64,000 nucleotides of DNA, from NCBI RefSeq assembly GCF_965641715.1, contig NZ_OZ282453.1. One strand, written 5' to 3'. A program made the position numbers. Shown piece by piece: positions 42,001 to 48,000 of this stretch. Positions within the stretch are counted from its first letter, which is position 1; every line of letters starts with the position of its first letter. This DNA is from Escherichia coli (GTDB lineage: Bacteria; Pseudomonadota; Gammaproteobacteria; Enterobacterales; Enterobacteriaceae).

Positions 42001-45000
42001 GATCATTAATCATGAGCTGACTTATACCGGTGATACCACGGTAGAGAATGGCGTTCTGATTGTCGGTGATGATTCAGTCACCCGTGCCGCTGGCGCGACG
42101 TTGTCAGGGTCCAAAAACATTCATGTTCTTAATGGCGGCACACTGAGTGGGCTGGGGACCGTTTCGGGTCAGGTTAATAACCAGGGAACACTGGCATCAC
42201 TGAATGCTCTCTCAGGTTATGAAACGGCAGAGGCGGGCAATTTTACCGTTGGCTCACTGACCAATACCGGCGTCATTCGTCTGGCCGGTGGTAAGACAGG
42301 AAATACCCTGACCGTAAATGGCGATTACACTGGTGGCGGTACGTTAATTATCAATACCGTGCTGGGGGATGATACTTCTGCCACTGACAAACTGATTGTC
42401 ACGGGTAACACCTCCGGTGATACCGGCGTGGTGGTGAATAATGTCCGGGGCCAGGGGGCTCAGACCGCTGACGGCATTGAGATTGTGCATGTCGGTGGGC
42501 AGTCTGACGGTAACTTCAGACTGCAGAACCGTGCGGTGGCAGGGGCATGGGAATATTTCCTGCATAAAGGTAATGCGGGTGGTACTGACGGTAACTGGTA
42601 TCTGCGTTCTGAATTGCCGCCAGAACCACAACCGCAGCCGCAGCCACAACCGCAGCCACAGCCACAGCCACACCCCACGCCGGATAAACCTGTACAGAAG
42701 GTCTATCGTCCGGAAGCGGGCTCTTATATTGCGAACATAGCGGCAGCCAACACGCTGTTCAACATCAGAATGCACGATCGTGAGGGGGAAACTTACTATA
42801 CCGATGTGTTTACTGGTGAGAAGAAAGCAACAAGTATGTGGATGCGTCATATCGGCGGTCATAATCGCTGGAAGGACAGCAGTTCACAGCTGAATACGCA
42901 AAGTAACCGTTATGTTGTGCAACTGGGTGGCAGCATTGCGCAATGGACTGACGGTCAGGACCGTCTGCAACTGGGGATTATGGCCGGTTATGGAAATGAG
43001 AAGAGTTCCACGACATCCTCGCTTTCGGGATATAAATCTAAAGGTGCGATCAATGGATACAGCACCGGTTTATACGGAACGTGGCAGCAGAATGACGGTA
43101 ATGACAACGGGGCTTATGTCGATACCTGGATCCAGTACGGATGGTTTAATAATACCGTTAATGGTGAAAAACTGGCTGCGGAGTCCTGGAAATCCCGTGG
43201 ATTTACCGGTTCAGTGGAAGCGGGTTATACCTTTAAAGCCGGCGAATTTACCGGTAGCCAGGGTAGTCACTATGACTGGTATATTCAGCCGCAGTCCCAG
43301 ATCACGTGGATGAATGTAAGAGCCAGTGAGCATACGGAGAAGAATGGCACGAAAGTTCAGCTCAGCGGAGACGGTAATATCCAGAGTCGTCTGGGCGTCA
43401 GAACTTACCTGAAAGGTAAGAGTGCGTCTGATGATATTAAGGCGCATCAGTTTGAGCCATTTGTGGAAGTTAACTGGATCCATAATACACGGAGCTGGGG
43501 TGTCAAAATGGATAATACGGCACTCAGTCAGGACGGAGCTACAAATATTGCTGAAGTCAAAACGGGTGTTCAGGGTAAATTGTCAGATAACCTGAATGTC
43601 TGGGGCAATGTTGGTGTTCAGGCTGGCGATAAAGGGTACAGTGATGCCCAGGCAATGCTGGGTATTAAATATATATTCTAATCACACAGTGGCAGGAGGG
43701 GACCTCCTGCCACCTCAGGGTTGTCATAATGAGTTCTGTAATGAAATTTTCTGTTGTTAATGCAGTAGTGCTGCTGTTGCTGATTGTACTTACTGGTGTT
43801 TTTTATATGAAAAAGTCAAAAGAAATTGCAGTTGTTAATATCGATGCTATTTATAATCAGTCTACCGCCGGAGACATGGCCAGAAAGCATCTGAATGAGG
43901 TTAAGAGTATTCTTGAAAAAGGATATGAGGATGCGCAAAAAGCATTCGCAGATAACGCGAATAAAGAGGCGCTGCTTCTTGATGCCAGACAAAAACTGGA
44001 ACGACAATATGTTATTGAGGAAAATAGCGCAAAAATGGTGTTATCCCGTGCGATAGATAATGCCATAGGCACATGGAGAAAAGACAATCCTAAAAATATT
44101 GCCGTATTGTCTTCAGGTGTTGTGCTTGCGCATAACGAGTCAGCTGATATCACCAAAGAAGTCATGACTTTGGTTGAAAAAGAAAATCTGGTTTTTAATA
44201 AATTACCCAAAGTGGAAGTGCACAATAAGAATGAAGAGAAACCAGAACAAAGTAAGTAATCACTAGATTCTGACGATTTCCAGAAGGGAGATTCAGCAGG
44301 CCAGCATCTGTAATCATTCAGATTTGCTGGCTTGCTGCTAAATATGGTTGCTAAGAAAAATAGCAGGCCAGTAATTTATTCAGATTACTGAATATAATAA
44401 TTTTTCAGGAACGGTTATGCTGAAGGTAGTATGTTTAATAGACACAATTATTTGCTGTGTCTAATATGAGGTGACATTTTTATGATCACTGACCAGCAAG
44501 ACTGACCCGTATTGATTAGCCTGATTATTGGCAACTTATTGGGGTAGTCATTTTGACATCGAATGGGGGAGGTTTCCAGTTAAGTTCACGAATGCATGAT
44601 GATTTGCGTTCACATATCGAAGTACTGGTTGGCTATACTAAGGATTTTAAGATAACTCACTGATTGTAAGTGGGTTATTGCGAGGGGGATGATAGATGGT
44701 GTCCCCTGCAGACATCTACTTGAAGCAGCAGGGGATTGATTGGAATGGTGTTTTTTAGATGTGAGAAATATTTTACCCGCTATTTTACCCATTGGCGCGG
44801 CTTAAGAGCTTATTTTTGAATTCACAATGGTCACGATATAACCATCTTGCTCGACCGTGGATAACTTTGGCTTTTGGCAGGTCGCCGGACTTAATCCGGT
44901 CGTAGATGAAGGTTTTACCAAAGCCAGTATCAGCCATGATGAATTTCAAATCAACCAGGGAATCAGGCTGTAGTTCGTGTTGCATGAGTGCTATCTCCGA

Positions 45001-48000
45001 ATAGGGAATCGAACCTGCAAATCAGGTAATAAAAAACCGCCATCAGGCGGATTGGTGTTCTTTCAGTTCTTCAATTCGAATATTGGTTACGTCTGCATGC
45101 GCTATCTGCGCCCATATCATCCAGTGGTTATAGCAGTCGTTGATGTTCTCTGCTTCGATAACCCTGTTGAATGGCTCTCCATTCCATTCACCTGTGACTC
45201 GGAAGTGCATTTATCATCTCCATAAAACAAAACTCGCCGTAGCGAGTTCAGATATAATATCCACCAAAGGCAGTAGTTGCTTGATGCTAAGAATTATTCA
45301 ATATCTATTCCTGTAATATCTTTTATCTTTTTCCTTGCAAAGCCTTTTGCTAGTGATTTTGAAACACTCATAAGTGTACTAATTCCCTCATCCTTAAAGT
45401 TTGTTTTTATAGCTTGCCAGACATCCTTTTGACGTAAGTCAGCAATAAAATCATGCCCTCTTGCTGTCAACCTCAGTGGTACTTCGATCCAACTATATCC
45501 AACACCTTCCCCTAACGCTTTGGACATTATATGACCGAACCCAGGTTTTCCATCAACCCTGACTATTAATTCGTAGTCACATAATAATCGCATATGGAAA
45601 ATAAAATCTTGGTCATATCTATTAAAGCCATTATCCTCTAGTTCACTAAGCATCGTGTCAGGGCCACGAGTTTTTTCGAATGCGATAAGTAGATCTTTTA
45701 GATATTGCTGGTCTAATTTCATTGCCGCCTCCGTGACATGTCACAGAGATTTATATCATTAATTTTGTTTCGTGCCAGCGTTTGGTCACCCAGCATTGTG
45801 AGTCACCATTACACGGGCATGAATTAACAGGAACTCTCTCGCCGCACTTACCTCAACGTTTTCTGCTGATCGATTTTATACGCCAGCGCACACGTGCATC
45901 ATCCTGGCGGCTCAGTAACGCGATGTACTCACCAAACTCGCAAGGCGCACGCCTGAAGCGACGCGTGGCACAGTTACGCTCCAGCATTTCAATTTCCTGA
46001 GCATCAAGTACAAGCTCCAGCTTACGCATACCGGATGATGCTTGCTTGGCTCTCCGATCGGCTTTGTGCTCTGTTGCTGATTTAGCCATTCTGCTTTTCC
46101 TGCATCAGGAGAAAGACAATCATGGCGGCGCGGATACTTCCGGTATCTTTTTACGCGATATTCCCCTTCAATGGCACATACAAGAAGAGAGCCATCAACA
46201 GGAGTGATTGAGGAATCGACAACCAGCAACGCTTAATTATCTATAGTGTCGTATTTGCTTCATAAAATATGGCGAATAACACAAAGCCCGCAGCAGCTCA
46301 TTGTGCGGGCTTTTCTTATACCTACTTCCTAGAGATAATTCTATGGAGGCATTAAATCAATACTGTCATTGGTAATATCATATTATCTAAAAGTCTTTCC
46401 ACTTTTAACATCTAGGTATATTCTGTTCGACAACGTCATTCCTCCGCAATATGTGAAATAGATGTTTTCACCCTTATTGCTTGATGCCATCCACCCTCCG
46501 ATTTCCTTAAAATCGCTTTCCGTGCAGACCCCTTCATTTATTAACTTCCTAGCTGCCGAAGAAAACTCTTTTTTGTATATACGGTAGTCATCAGATCCTT
46601 TGATTAAAGTATCATCTCCGCTCGCATTTTCAGCAGGATCTGATGGCCTTTCACTGCTAAGATCACTAAGTTTAACCCATTCTGAAAACTTTCCATTAAC
46701 GATTCCATTTTTTCTTGTGCAGGATTTATTACCTTCTTTAATATATTCGCTTTCCCCTCCAACACATGAGGCTGAATATGGCTCAGTTATACGAACCCAT
46801 TCACCTTTTTTTTCTAGAAAATCTACGCCTTCCCTGAAAAATAGTTTCCCAGCCACTCCACATTTACTTGAAGGGCAGGTATGTCTTTCCGTTCGATCAA
46901 CAACAACCCATAGTTTTGATTCATTTTTTGCCATTGCCGATGGTATTTGAGATGAGACAATTAACGTAAGCCCTAAAATTAGTATTGATTTTTTCATTGT
47001 AATTTCCTTTTACTTTTTACAAAGCGTTTAATCATGGCTGATTATCTCTAAGCGTAGTAACAGCCTTGTGCGAAACATGTTACCAAATCGCCATTTCAGT
47101 GTATCCGCAGTTAGGCTGCCACTTCAAGGATTCCTAATTACATGGTACGTAAGCGTAAAATCCCGTTGGTTGGCGGGTAATAACTCTGATCAAATCTCCC
47201 TTGTCTTTTGCTCTTACGTATGCAGCTCTTGTGTATTCAACCCAGGCCTCCAGTTCAGCAATACGCTTACTTCCATCCGAGATAACACCTTCTACTCACG
47301 CTGCTCGTTGAGTTTTGATTTTTGCTGTCTCCAGCTCAACACGCAGTTTCCCCACCGTTAGCGCAATATCCTCGTTATCCTGGTCGCGGCGTTTGATGTA
47401 TTGCTGGTTTCTTTCCCGTTCATCCAGCAGTGTCAGCACAATCGATGGTGTTACCAGCTCATGGAAAAGGTCCGCGTCAAATCCCCAGTTGTCATGCATT
47501 GCCTGCTCTGCCGCTTCACGCAGTGCCTGAGAGTGAATTACGCTCACTTCGAACCTCTCTGTTTACTGATAAGCTCCAGATATTCCTGGCAACTTGCACA
47601 AGTCCGACAACCCTGAACGGCCAGACGTCTTAGTTCATCTATCGGATCGCCACACTCACAACAATGAGTGGCAGATATAGCCTGGTGGTTCAGGCGGTGC
47701 ATTTTTATTGCTGTGTTGCGCTGTAATTCTTCAATTTCTGATGCTGAATCAATGATGTCTGCCATCTTCCATTAATCCCTAAATTGTTGGTTAATACGCT
47801 TGAGGGTGAATGTGAACAATAAAAAAGGAGCCTGTAGCTCCCTGATGATTTTGCTTTTCATGTTCACCGTTCCTTAAAGACGCCGTTTAACATGCCGATC
47901 GCTAGGCTTAAATGAGTCGGTGTGAATCCCATCAGCGTTACCGTTTCGCGGTGCTTCTTTAGTACGCTACGGCAAATGTCATCGACGTTTTTATCCGGAA

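What the first reader, a model, noticed from the sequence alone, without database searches (positions are those of the whole stretch)
44697..45020. Two tRNA-Arg (argW)-derived fragments flanking the torI-like gene mark the prophage/island junction
The reverse complement of 44697-44711 is the last 15 nt of argW (ctgcaggggacacca). The reverse complement of 45005-45020 is the argW T-arm 16-mer (ttgcaggttcgattcc), which then diverges. The two are not contiguous; the torI-like gene lies between them. This suggests successive integrations at argW or a rearranged att site. The tRNA sequence is from memory.
Basis: partly seen in the sequence, partly recalled or inferred. Interest (0 to 1): 0.55.

Follow-up and report, generated by a model that had tools for sequence, protein, structure and literature searches.

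The report
argW prophage junction with torI
[quoted passage not shown] The second tRNA-like piece is not a scar of another insertion but a short, conserved element that the phage itself carries in front of its excisionase gene.

Summary
Both sequence observations are exact. The reverse complement of 44697-44711 is the last 15 nt of argW, and that of 45005-45020 is the argW T-arm 16-mer.

The 15-mer lies in the 16-bp core (44696-44711, CTGCAGGGGACACCAT) of attR of a KplE1/HK620-type IntS/TorI module. 186 E. coli genomes hold the empty site, with argW joined directly to the window's left flank. A 99%-identical genome has argW and intS about 42.75 kb away. K-12 already annotates this fragment as the pseudogene pawZ.

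The 16-mer does not come from a second integration in this genome. It lies inside the prophage, 19 nt upstream of the torI ATG. It is also present in K-12 KplE1 and in free phage HK620, outside the 135-bp attR that works in vitro.

The unexpected part is conservation. The block (CAGGTTCGATTCC, minimal form GTTCGATT(C/T)C) sits 8 nt before the Shine-Dalgarno in 9 of 17 TorI-family loci from several enterobacterial genera. It is also in 63 of 80 loci of a clearly more divergent excisionase family, all targeting argW. It lies within about 8 nt of the module's left end in one lineage.

No RNA fold, promoter or extended tRNA similarity supports other readings. Its function is unknown; a protein-binding site (IntS B-type half-site or TorI operator) is my best guess. 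Overall this is known biology with one modest new detail.

The parts
44696..44711 (-). attR core (CTGCAGGGGACACCAT): the last 15 nt of argW plus 1 nt, duplicated by site-specific integration. It is equivalent to the K-12 pseudogene pawZ.
   Evidence: Exact match to argW. It is identical in attB, attL, attR and attP. The empty-site comparison puts the boundary here. The 16-nt core is published (PMC2951348), and pawZ is annotated in K-12.
44712..44784 (-). P arm of attR between the torI stop codon and the core. It carries two IntS arm-type repeats, GGGTAAAAT, at 44782-44790 and 44770-44778.
   Evidence: The sequence is identical to K-12 KplE1 attR. IntS arm-type sites share the motif TAAA (PMC2951348). 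This stretch lies within the 135-bp attR used for in vitro excision (primers in PMC3509656).
44785..44985 (-). torI, the recombination directionality factor (excisionase) TorI, 66 aa.
   Evidence: PDB 1Z4H 'Tor inhibition protein', E 6.6e-43 over residues 1-66. phrog_66 'excisionase and transcriptional regulator'. RefSeq annotates the same gene as torI in homologous genomes.
44986..45004 (-). torI leader, with the Shine-Dalgarno GGAG at 44995-44998.
   Evidence: Read directly from the sequence. GGAG lies 8 nt after GGTTCGATT in most lineages.
45005..45020 (-). argW T-arm-identical 16-mer TTGCAGGTTCGATTCC. The conserved core is CAGGTTCGATTCC, minimal form GTTCGATT(C/T)C. It is carried by the phage at the left end of the recombination module.
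   Evidence: Exact match to argW positions 46-61. Present in K-12 KplE1 and HK620. GGTTCGATT is the only invariant run of 9 in a 120-nt alignment of 13 lineages, although 5 of them were found by a pattern containing the block. It is present in 9/17 TorI-family loci and 63/80 second-family loci.
45017..45029 (-). TTAC-ctgat-TTGC, a degenerate counterpart of the lambda pI cII box (TTGC-N6-TTGC). HK620 has TTGC-ctgat-TTGC, annotated there as a cII binding site.
   Evidence: Alignment with lambda, P22 and HK620 and the HK620 annotation. The box is not conserved in other lineages.
45031..45050 (-). Intrinsic terminator (CCGCCTGATGGCGG plus a T run) that ends the upstream lambda-like gene. The sequence shared with lambda and P22 stops here.
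   Evidence: Terminator scan. Window 45028-45099 is 97% identical to lambda 29103-29174.
44260..44695 (.). Chromosomal flank (B' side) of the attachment site. It leads into the variable argW-dsdC island (hypothetical gene 43729-44259, UpaE 35762-43681).
   Evidence: This flank is contiguous with argW in 186 prophage-free genomes. Annotation of TL20 and strain 2016C-3878.
44696..64000 (.). Right-hand 19.3 kb of the lambdoid prophage (early-left genes, cIII, cI/cro, O/P, Q, phage tRNAs, lysis, head genes). The rest lies beyond the window.
   Evidence: Colinear at 99.05% with TL20 and annotated there. The lambda CIII thermoregulator is at 50570-50628.

Best explanation
The region is attR, the right junction of a roughly 43-kb lambdoid prophage. 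The prophage integrated into the 3' end of argW (tRNA-Arg CCU) using a KplE1/HK620-type module with the gene order torI - attP - intS.

Integration exchanged strands within the 15-16 bp shared by attP and the tRNA 3' end. Intact argW with intS therefore sits at the far end (attL), and the duplicated core with torI sits here.

The second tRNA-like piece was not made by integration in this genome. It is a phage-borne block identical to the argW T-arm, lying at the left end of the module, 19 nt upstream of the torI start codon.

Shown: its position, its presence in free phage DNA, its absence from the minimal attR, and its conservation across genera and across two excisionase families that all target argW.

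Inferred (about 0.4): it is kept as a protein-binding DNA site that modulates torI expression or intasome architecture. One candidate is a copy of the attB left (B-type) core half-site for IntS. The T-loop TTCGATTCC directly abuts the predicted 7-bp overlap TGCAGGG in attB, and the block ends at that same point. The other candidate is a TorI operator, because the block contains the GTTCG pentamer of TorI sites.

Inferred (about 0.5): the block derives from an argW copy captured when this module first formed.
For: - Core and boundary: the match to argW is exact. The synthetic empty site is found in one piece in 186 genomes, for example yfdC-argW-hyp-UpaE-ipuA-ipuB-dsdC in strain 2016C-3878. The attB/attL/attR/attP alignment shares CTGCAGGGGACACCAT.
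- Far end: TL20 is colinear with window 24282-64000 at 99.05%. It has tRNA-Arg followed by intS about 42.75 kb from torI.
- Module identity: 341 bp (45035-44695) are 98.8% identical to K-12 KplE1. TorI matches PDB 1Z4H. The published core, TorI sites and arm sites agree (PMC2951348).
- The block is phage-borne: it is in the HK620 attP region. 74 of the 77 IMG/VR loci whose upstream region could be read carry the exact 16-mer; the other 3 differ from it by one base.
- Not part of the minimal attR: the 135-bp in vitro substrate starts at the 3' end of torI (PMC3509656).
- Conservation: GGTTCGATT is invariant across 13 lineages while the flanks differ. In samples found by protein similarity it is present in 9/17 loci of the TorI family and in 63/80 of the second family. 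All of these are followed by the argW core.
- Left-end position: the block lies 16 nt after the point where lambda homology ends. In L144, L272 and L274 it lies 8 nt after a truncated P22-type xis, MESHSLTLDEACAFLKIS.
- Half-site logic: attP reads GATGTC|TGCAGGG|GACACC, an imperfect inverted repeat around a 7-nt spacer. attR flanks in other hosts diverge immediately after CACCA, which places the crossover inside the 15-mer.
- TorI-site logic: the argW T-loop GTTCG lies 31 bp from TorI site I1, roughly in helical phase with sites at +20, +63, +73 and +83.
Against: - The block is dispensable. 8 of 17 TorI-family loci lack it, including Klebsiella phage RCIP0114 and Erwinia phage 49. Some second-family leaders look like natural deletions, TTGCCTG|GAGATAA. 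In vitro excision works without it.
- In the second family the 5' CAGG is often changed (AGTTCG, TGTTCG), so identity to the tRNA shrinks to about 10 nt there.
- All 20 known or predicted TorI-type sites have C or T after the pentamer, never the A found in the block.
- No binding data for this DNA could be found. Panis 2007 and Menouni 2013 could not be read.
- Part of the conservation could reflect recent horizontal spread of a shared leader rather than selection.
- Five of the 13 aligned lineages were found with a pattern that contains the block.
Confidence: 0.85

Rival explanations
1. One reading: the two fragments are scars of successive integrations at argW, or of a rearranged att site, in this chromosome.
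For: The two fragments abut in argW and flank a single gene in direct orientation. argW is a known hot spot with a variable island next to it (Moritz & Welch 2006, as cited in PMC8787464).
Against: The 16-mer is identical in position and sequence in free phage HK620 and in K-12 KplE1. It lies inside the prophage, on the phage side of the boundary mapped with the empty site. Only one core copy exists in the window even when 2 mismatches are allowed. No integrase or element remnant lies between the fragments.
Confidence: 0.03
2. The T-arm block is a neutral fossil. It would be a piece of argW captured when the P4-type int/RDF module was first joined to a lambdoid or P22-like genome, for example through integration at a secondary site upstream of the RDF followed by aberrant excision. 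It would persist only because it sits in a short leader that spreads horizontally with the module.
For: The block lies within about 8 nt of the module's left end in one lineage, next to differing junction partners. Many lineages lack it or carry a degraded form. It is outside the functional attR. Nearly identical leaders precede clearly divergent RDF genes, as expected for a recombining boundary sequence.
Against: GTTCGATT(C/T)C stays unchanged where the adjacent 6-nt spacer and the upstream flank have diverged completely, for example between E. coli and Edwardsiella or Pantoea stewartii with TorI at 74% identity. The distance to the Shine-Dalgarno is fixed at 8 nt. The hypothetical unsplit ancestor (left arm plus a contiguous tRNA 3' end) was not found in IMG/VR.
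Confidence: 0.35
3. The block is part of a cII-activated, lambda pI-like promoter, as the HK620 record annotates it. Such a promoter would drive int expression during lysogenization from a start site too close to the ATG for xis translation.
For: HK620 annotates a 'phage integration' promoter and a cII site, TTGCctgatTTGC, that overlaps the first 4 nt of the 16-mer. Lambda has its pI cII box at the same place after the shared terminator.
Against: The repeat spacing is N5, not N6. The window and K-12 have TTAC in the first half-site. Edwardsiella, Pantoea and other lineages have no TTGC repeats, yet they keep the block. The putative -10 (TATTCG) is not conserved. The promoter scan finds nothing upstream of torI.
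Confidence: 0.1
4. The block acts in RNA, as a T-loop mimic in the torI 5' untranslated region. It might be bound by a tRNA-modifying or processing enzyme, or form a structure that controls ribosome access.
For: It lies at a fixed distance from the Shine-Dalgarno. In Edwardsiella, P. stewartii and L197 it can form a T-arm-like hairpin, ACAGG-TTCGATTC-CCTGT.
Against: RNAalifold gives -1.97 kcal/mol with 0 covarying pairs. The 3' stem half is absent in the E. coli type. No Rfam tRNA or other significant hit was found.
Confidence: 0.07
5. The 16-mer resembles argW by chance.
For: The first four bases (TTGC) could come from a lambda-like cII box rather than from the tRNA. Other lineages share only 10-13 nt.
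Against: By my arithmetic, an exact 16-mer is expected about 3e-5 times per window. Even the 13-mer is expected about 2e-3 times within 500 bp of the att core. The match is to the very tRNA that the adjacent att site targets, in the same orientation, and it ends where the core begins.
Confidence: 0.03

Closest known systems
KplE1 (CPS-53) prophage attR of E. coli K-12, including the 15-nt pseudo-tRNA 'pawZ' (b4643) and torI
   Same: 341 bp from upstream of the T-arm block through torI, the P arm and the core are 98.8% identical. It has the same 16-bp core, the same arm-type repeats and the same T-arm 16-mer upstream of torI.
   Different: K-12 carries a 10-kb defective remnant, and its chromosomal flank is dsdC directly. 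Here the module belongs to a full-size lambdoid prophage, and the flank is the UpaE/ipuAB island. Upstream of the block, K-12 has a P22-type xis remnant (ypdJ) rather than the lambda-like gene and terminator.
attP regions of phages HK620, Sf6 and Kapi1 (xis - attP - int, integrating at argW)
   Same: The HK620 attP region has the same torI (hkaC), core and T-arm 16-mer. The literature describes attP lying between xis and int, and the 16-17 bp att site (PMC2951348, PMC3509656, PMC8787464).
   Different: Those are P22-like podoviruses in the free or attP state. Here the module is in the integrated state, in a phage whose tail genes are annotated in TL20 as baseplate and DUF3383-type proteins. 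HK620 has TTGC where the window has TTAC in the putative cII box.
Lambda xis leader / pI region
   Same: It has the same upstream gene end and terminator (97% over 72 nt). It has the same layout of terminator, TTGC-repeat box, GGAG and the RDF start codon.
   Different: Lambda has no T-loop block; relative to lambda, the TorI leader has about 18 extra nt, AGGTTCGATTCCCTATTC. Lambda has the order xis-int-attP and a non-tRNA attB.
Direct repeats of tRNA 3' ends at the borders of tRNA-integrated islands and prophages (Reiter et al. 1989, cited in PMC8787464; Williams 2002, from my own knowledge)
   Same: The 15/16-bp core is a textbook example of a duplicated tRNA 3' end at the distal junction.
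   Different: The T-arm block is not contiguous with the core, is not at a junction and is not generated by integration. I found no description of such a detached tRNA-identical block in the papers I could read.

Membership tests
KplE1/HK620-type IntS/TorI recombination module (attR) | A core sequence identical to the argW 3' end (CTGCAGGGGACACCAT) at the prophage-chromosome junction | tested here: met
   Exact at 44696-44711. Published core: PMC2951348.
KplE1/HK620-type IntS/TorI recombination module (attR) | The TorI RDF gene immediately inside the prophage next to the core, reading towards it | tested here: met
   The 44785-44985 (-) product matches PDB 1Z4H at E 6.6e-43. It is 100% identical to 80 IMG/VR TorI loci.
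KplE1/HK620-type IntS/TorI recombination module (attR) | IntS arm-type sites (TAAA motif) in the P arm between torI and the core | tested here: met
   Two GGGTAAAAT repeats at 44770-44790, identical to K-12. The motif is defined in PMC2951348. Binding was not tested.
KplE1/HK620-type IntS/TorI recombination module (attR) | Intact argW followed by intS, with five TorI sites overlapping PintS, at the other prophage end (attL) | tested here: met
   This end is not in the window. In the colinear genome TL20 (99.05%), tRNA-Arg and intS are adjacent, with GTTCG/GATCG sites at the published spacing.
KplE1/HK620-type IntS/TorI recombination module (attR) | Existence of an unoccupied attB whose sequence equals the attL left part plus the attR right part | tested here: met
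   186 genomes; locus L007.
KplE1/HK620-type IntS/TorI recombination module (attR) | IntS- and TorI-dependent excision | not testable with these tools
   This needs an in vivo or in vitro excision assay.
tRNA gene or tRNA pseudogene | A cloverleaf recognisable by ARAGORN or Rfam RF00005 | tested here: not met
   No tRNA call at 44600-45150, even at E<=10. These are 15- and 16-nt fragments only.
Tandem or successive integration at one att site | Two copies of the crossover core, or remnants of a second element (integrase, arms) between the repeats | tested here: not met
   A single core in the window with up to 2 mismatches allowed. Only torI and the P arm lie between the fragments. The same arrangement is found in unintegrated HK620.
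Lambda pI-type cII-dependent promoter | A TTGC-N6-TTGC box at -35 and conservation among relatives | tested here: not met
   The window has TTAC-N5-TTGC. The box is absent in Edwardsiella, Pantoea and L144-type leaders that keep the block.
TorI (RDF) binding site | A GTTCG/GATCG/GTCCG pentamer (PMC2951348) followed by C or T, in phased arrays | tested here: inconclusive
   The block contains GTTCG but is followed by A, whereas 20/20 P'-arm sites have C or T. It is a single site. Binding was not tested.
IntS core-type (B) half-site | The same sequence as the attB left half-site abutting the overlap region, and bound by the IntS catalytic/core-binding domains | tested here: inconclusive
   The sequence TTCGATTCC is identical to the attB left flank and ends at the predicted cleavage point. 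The overlap position is inferred, not mapped, and binding was not tested.

The most novel reading that the evidence does not exclude
The detached T-loop block (GTTCGATTCC, 8 nt before the RDF Shine-Dalgarno) could be a previously unrecognised cis-regulatory element of argW-targeting integration modules. It would be a copy of the attB left half-site placed in front of the excisionase gene. Through it, integrase present in the lysogen, or the excisionase itself, could bind or loop the DNA and gate torI expression, the step that decides prophage excision. The block would also be a molecular fossil showing that this P4-type int/RDF module was captured from an argW junction.
Probability: 0.3. Interest if true: 0.5.

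Novelty: new member of a known kind. Interest (0 to 1): 0.3.

Why it matters
The junction itself adds nothing new. It is another prophage using the best-studied argW integration module, and the duplicated tRNA end is already annotated in K-12 as pawZ.

Its practical value is that it fixes the prophage boundary to the base pair. It also shows that the neighbouring UpaE/ipuAB island is chromosomal and not part of the phage.

The one point worth following up is the conserved T-loop block in the torI leader. Control of torI expression is regarded as the switch for excision in this system, and its promoter region was described as uncharacterised in 2010 (PMC2951348). A conserved motif exactly there, identical to the half of attB that integrase must recognise, is a cheap and testable candidate for that control. 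It may also help explain how integration modules are swapped between phage families.

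Tried and rejected
1. Unsplit ancestor. An exact search of IMG/VR for the left arm joined to a contiguous tRNA 3' end (CTGATTTGCAGGTTCGATTCCTGCAGGGG) gave 0 hits.

2. Whole leader as a degenerate second copy of the tRNA 3' end, with the Shine-Dalgarno derived from GGGGAC. Local alignment of six leader tails against the tRNA tail was no better than shuffles (p 0.38-0.99), so I rejected this.

3. L222 and L223 looked like intermediates (T-arm contiguous with CTGCAGGGGAGATAAAA). ARAGORN shows they are genuine tRNA-Arg(CCT) genes of low-GC DNA with no encoded CCA, so they are irrelevant.

4. Conserved RNA structure. RNAalifold gave -1.97 kcal/mol and no covariation. Rfam at E<=10 gave only sub-threshold noise, the best being STnc130 at E 0.71, driven mostly by the terminator hairpin.

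5. A sigma-70 promoter upstream of torI. None was found.

6. A second core remnant at the dsdC end of the UpaE island, which would have indicated an older argW-integrated element. None was found with up to 2 mismatches.

7. The C at core+1 as evidence for a crossover outside the 16-mer. attR flanks in other hosts diverge right after CACCA, so the crossover is inside the 15-mer and the C is most simply a SNP.

8. Papers that probably hold footprint and transcript data (Panis 2007 JBC; Menouni 2013 PNAS) are not in the library.

9. NCBIfam gave no hit for TorI or the two neighbouring small ORFs.

Full report
**Observation**

The minus strand of the window reads, from 45050 to 44690: terminator hairpin CCGCCTGATGGCGG, T run, ATTACCTGAT, then TTGCAGGTTCGATTCC (45020-45005). 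It continues with CTATTCGGAGATAGCACTC and the ATG of a 66-codon ORF (44985-44785). After that come GGGTAAAATAGCGGGTAAAAT, about 55 nt more, and CTGCAGGGGACACCAT (44711-44696), followed by unrelated sequence.

Each occurs once in the window; searches allowing 2 or 3 mismatches found no further copies.

In the tRNA the two pieces abut and share one C. ARAGORN and Rfam see no tRNA here.

**What the 15-mer is**

The window is colinear at 99.05% with E. coli TL20 over 39.7 kb. In TL20 the left side is annotated as evgSA-emrKY-dsdAXC-ipuB-ipuA-HTH-UpaE-hypothetical. The right side begins with torI and continues with lambda-type early genes, cIII, cI/cro, O/P, nin genes, Q, lysis and head genes. At the other end, about 42.75 kb away, lie intS and an intact tRNA-Arg next to yfdC.

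I built a synthetic empty site from yfdC-argW through the core, joined to the window's left flank. It is found in one piece at 99.5% identity in 186 complete E. coli genomes. In strain 2016C-3878 the order is yfdC-argW-hypothetical-UpaE-HTH-ipuA-ipuB-dsdC, with no prophage.

An alignment of attB, attL, attR (window and K-12) and attP (HK620) shares exactly CTGCAGGGGACACCAT. In other hosts the attR flank diverges immediately after CACCA, so strand exchange occurs inside the 15-mer.

This is the published 16-nt core of KplE1 (PMC2951348). K-12 annotates the 15-nt copy as the pseudogene pawZ next to torI. The ORF is TorI: it matches PDB 1Z4H at E 6.6e-43 and phrog_66. The 341 bp from 45035 to 44695 are 98.8% identical to K-12 KplE1.

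The two GGGTAAAAT repeats fit the IntS arm-type sites, which share the motif TAAA. The GTTCG/GATCG repeats in TL20 attL fit the five TorI sites (PMC2951348).

**What the 16-mer is not**

It is not a junction scar in this genome. It lies 293 nt inside the prophage. It is present at the same position in K-12 KplE1 and in the attP region of free phage HK620.

Of the 77 IMG/VR TorI loci whose upstream region could be read, 74 carry the exact 16-mer; the other 3 each differ from it by one base. Polymorphism is also seen in the bases that flank it.

The 16-mer lies outside the 135-bp attR that supports in vitro excision, which starts at CTCTTAAGCCGCGCCAATGG near the torI stop codon (PMC3509656). No second core copy exists in the window.

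**What the 16-mer is**

Relatives were retrieved by protein similarity from one genome per species. These loci show CAGGTTCGATTCC, or at least GGTTCGATT, in front of the TorI homologue in:
- Escherichia
- Enterobacter sp. R1
- Citrobacter sp. wls619
- Pantoea sp. BAV3049
- Pantoea stewartii
- two Edwardsiella species
- an enterobacterial-looking contig labelled as an actinomycete MAG

That is 9 of 17 loci, with TorI identity down to 74% and unrelated upstream flanks. The block is absent from Tatumella, Arsenophonus, E. ludwigii, two Pantoea species, Xenorhabdus, Klebsiella phage RCIP0114 and Erwinia phage 49.

A pattern scan of IMG/VR then showed the block in front of a second RDF family (MRELRDDSL...) that is clearly more divergent from TorI. 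This family has different arm-type repeats (GGGCATAA) but the same argW core.

An unbiased protein-based sample of that family has GTTCGATT in 63 of 80 loci, or 34 of 49 distinct leaders. The full 13-mer is present in 24 loci. Variants include AGTTCGATTCC and TGTTCGATTCC, and some leaders look like clean deletions (TTGCCTG|GAGATAA).

In a 13-lineage alignment, GGTTCGATT is the only invariant run of nine. It always lies 8 or 9 nt before GGAG, while the spacer and upstream sequence vary. Five of those lineages were found with a pattern containing the block, so this alignment overstates the invariance. The protein-based samples do not have that bias.

**Position in the module**

Homology to lambda, P22 and many lambdoid phages ends at the T run of the terminator, 16 nt before the 13-nt conserved block (CAGGTTCGATTCC) and 7 nt before the 16-mer. 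In L144, L272 and L274 the block is preceded, 8 nt upstream, by the first 18 codons of a P22-type xis (MESHSLTLDEACAFLKIS). The same remnant, in degraded form, is K-12 ypdJ.

The block is therefore at the extreme left end of the transferable unit: block - leader - RDF - P arm - core - P' arm - int.

**Mechanism**

For the junction, the mechanism is established. IntS-catalysed recombination between attP and the argW 3' end regenerates the tRNA at attL and leaves the core copy at attR. TorI bound at attL directs excision (PMC2951348, PMC3509656).

For the block, I could test and exclude several readings:
- There is no conserved RNA fold.
- There is no tRNA-like hit.
- There is no sigma-70-like promoter upstream of torI.
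- There is no significant similarity of the rest of the leader to the tRNA tail.
- HK620's annotated cII box (TTGC-N5-TTGC) is degenerate in the window and absent in other lineages that keep the block.

What remains is a DNA motif conserved in primary sequence. Two observations suggest which protein might read it.

First, attP reads GATGTC|TGCAGGG|GACACC, an imperfect inverted repeat around 7 nt. In attB the left half-site is then the T-loop, ...TTCGATTCC|TGCAGGG. The block is an exact copy of that half-site and ends at the same point.

Second, the block contains GTTCG, the pentamer of TorI sites. The T-loop of argW in attL lies 31 bp from site I1, roughly in phase with the array. However, all 20 P'-arm sites examined have C or T after the pentamer, whereas the block has A.

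I therefore rate a protein-binding role (IntS half-site or TorI operator) at about 0.4 and a neutral fossil at about 0.35. The cII-promoter reading is about 0.1 and an RNA role about 0.07.

A role in controlling torI would matter. The Ansaldi group concluded that RDF expression is the main control point of excision and described PtorI as uncharacterised (PMC2951348).

**Comparison with what is known, and verdict**

The locus meets every testable defining feature of a KplE1/HK620-type attR. It fails the tests for a tRNA gene, for tandem integration and for a lambda-type cII promoter.

It is a new member of a known kind: a full-size lambdoid prophage carrying this module, next to the variable argW-dsdC island. 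None of the papers I could read on KplE1, TorI or Kapi1 mentions the detached, conserved T-loop block. Two key papers were unavailable.

Interest is modest at 0.3. The main finding is ordinary and already annotated in K-12. The block is a small, testable addition.

Noticed in passing
window 32432-44695: A 12.3-kb chromosomal island lies between dsdC and the att core: ipuB, ipuA (tyrosine invertases), an HTH regulator, the 2639-aa phase-variable autotransporter UpaE (35762-43681) and a 176-aa hypothetical gene. K-12 lacks it; K-12 homology resumes at 32431. No argW core remnant is found at its dsdC end.
   Followed up: partly
window 44695 (core+1): attR in the window and in K-12 reads CACCATC. 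The empty sites, attL and HK620 attP read CACCATT. This is most simply a SNP, but it occurs in two attR sites with different flanks.
   Followed up: partly
window 44610-44792 (-): A 60-aa ORF spans the P arm, the core and the host flank. Its first 34 aa match phrog_18701 (HK620 hkaB-like). In the prophage it is a phage/host hybrid reading frame and is probably not a real gene.
   Followed up: partly
window 58147-58302 (+): Two phage-borne tRNAs, Asn(GTT) and Thr(TGT), lie 5 nt apart downstream of the Q antiterminator gene. The RefSeq annotation of the colinear TL20 prophage lists only tRNA-Asn there.
   Followed up: no
window 50570-50628 (-): A full-length Rfam match to the lambda cIII thermoregulator (88.5 bits) confirms a lambda-type early-left operon reading towards torI.
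   Followed up: no
L003 10700-10735 (K-12 ypdJ); L144, L272, L274 upstream of the RDF: The first 18 codons of a P22-type xis (MESHSLTLDEACAFLKIS) are fused 8 nt upstream of the T-loop block (directly in L144, L272 and L274; with about 45 intervening nt in K-12). This shows that the argW module replaced a P22-type xis-int-attP module by a break inside xis.
   Followed up: partly
L248, L243, L245, L262-L267 (IMG/VR): These leaders of the second RDF family lack the block and read terminator-TTGCCTG|GAGATAA or TTGCCCGGAGG. They look like precise deletions of about 24 nt, so the block is dispensable in nature.
   Followed up: partly
L094 (JAEWEJ010000341.1): A 5-kb contig labelled 'Actinomycetes bacterium MAG' carries an enterobacterial-type TorI module (85% identity) with an argW-type core. 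It is probably a mis-binned or contaminating contig.
   Followed up: no
window 44935-45062 (+): A sub-threshold Rfam hit to the Salmonella sRNA STnc130 (21.9 bits, E 0.71) lies antisense to the torI 5' end and the leader. It is driven mostly by the terminator hairpin. P22 annotates an antisense 'aI RNA' ending at the homologous hairpin.
   Followed up: no
window 44973-44977 (-): CGAAC, the inverted copy of the GTTCG pentamer, lies in torI codons 3-5, 37 bp from the block's GTTCG. The pair brackets the Shine-Dalgarno and the ATG. It may simply reflect the conserved Glu-Leu codons.
   Followed up: no
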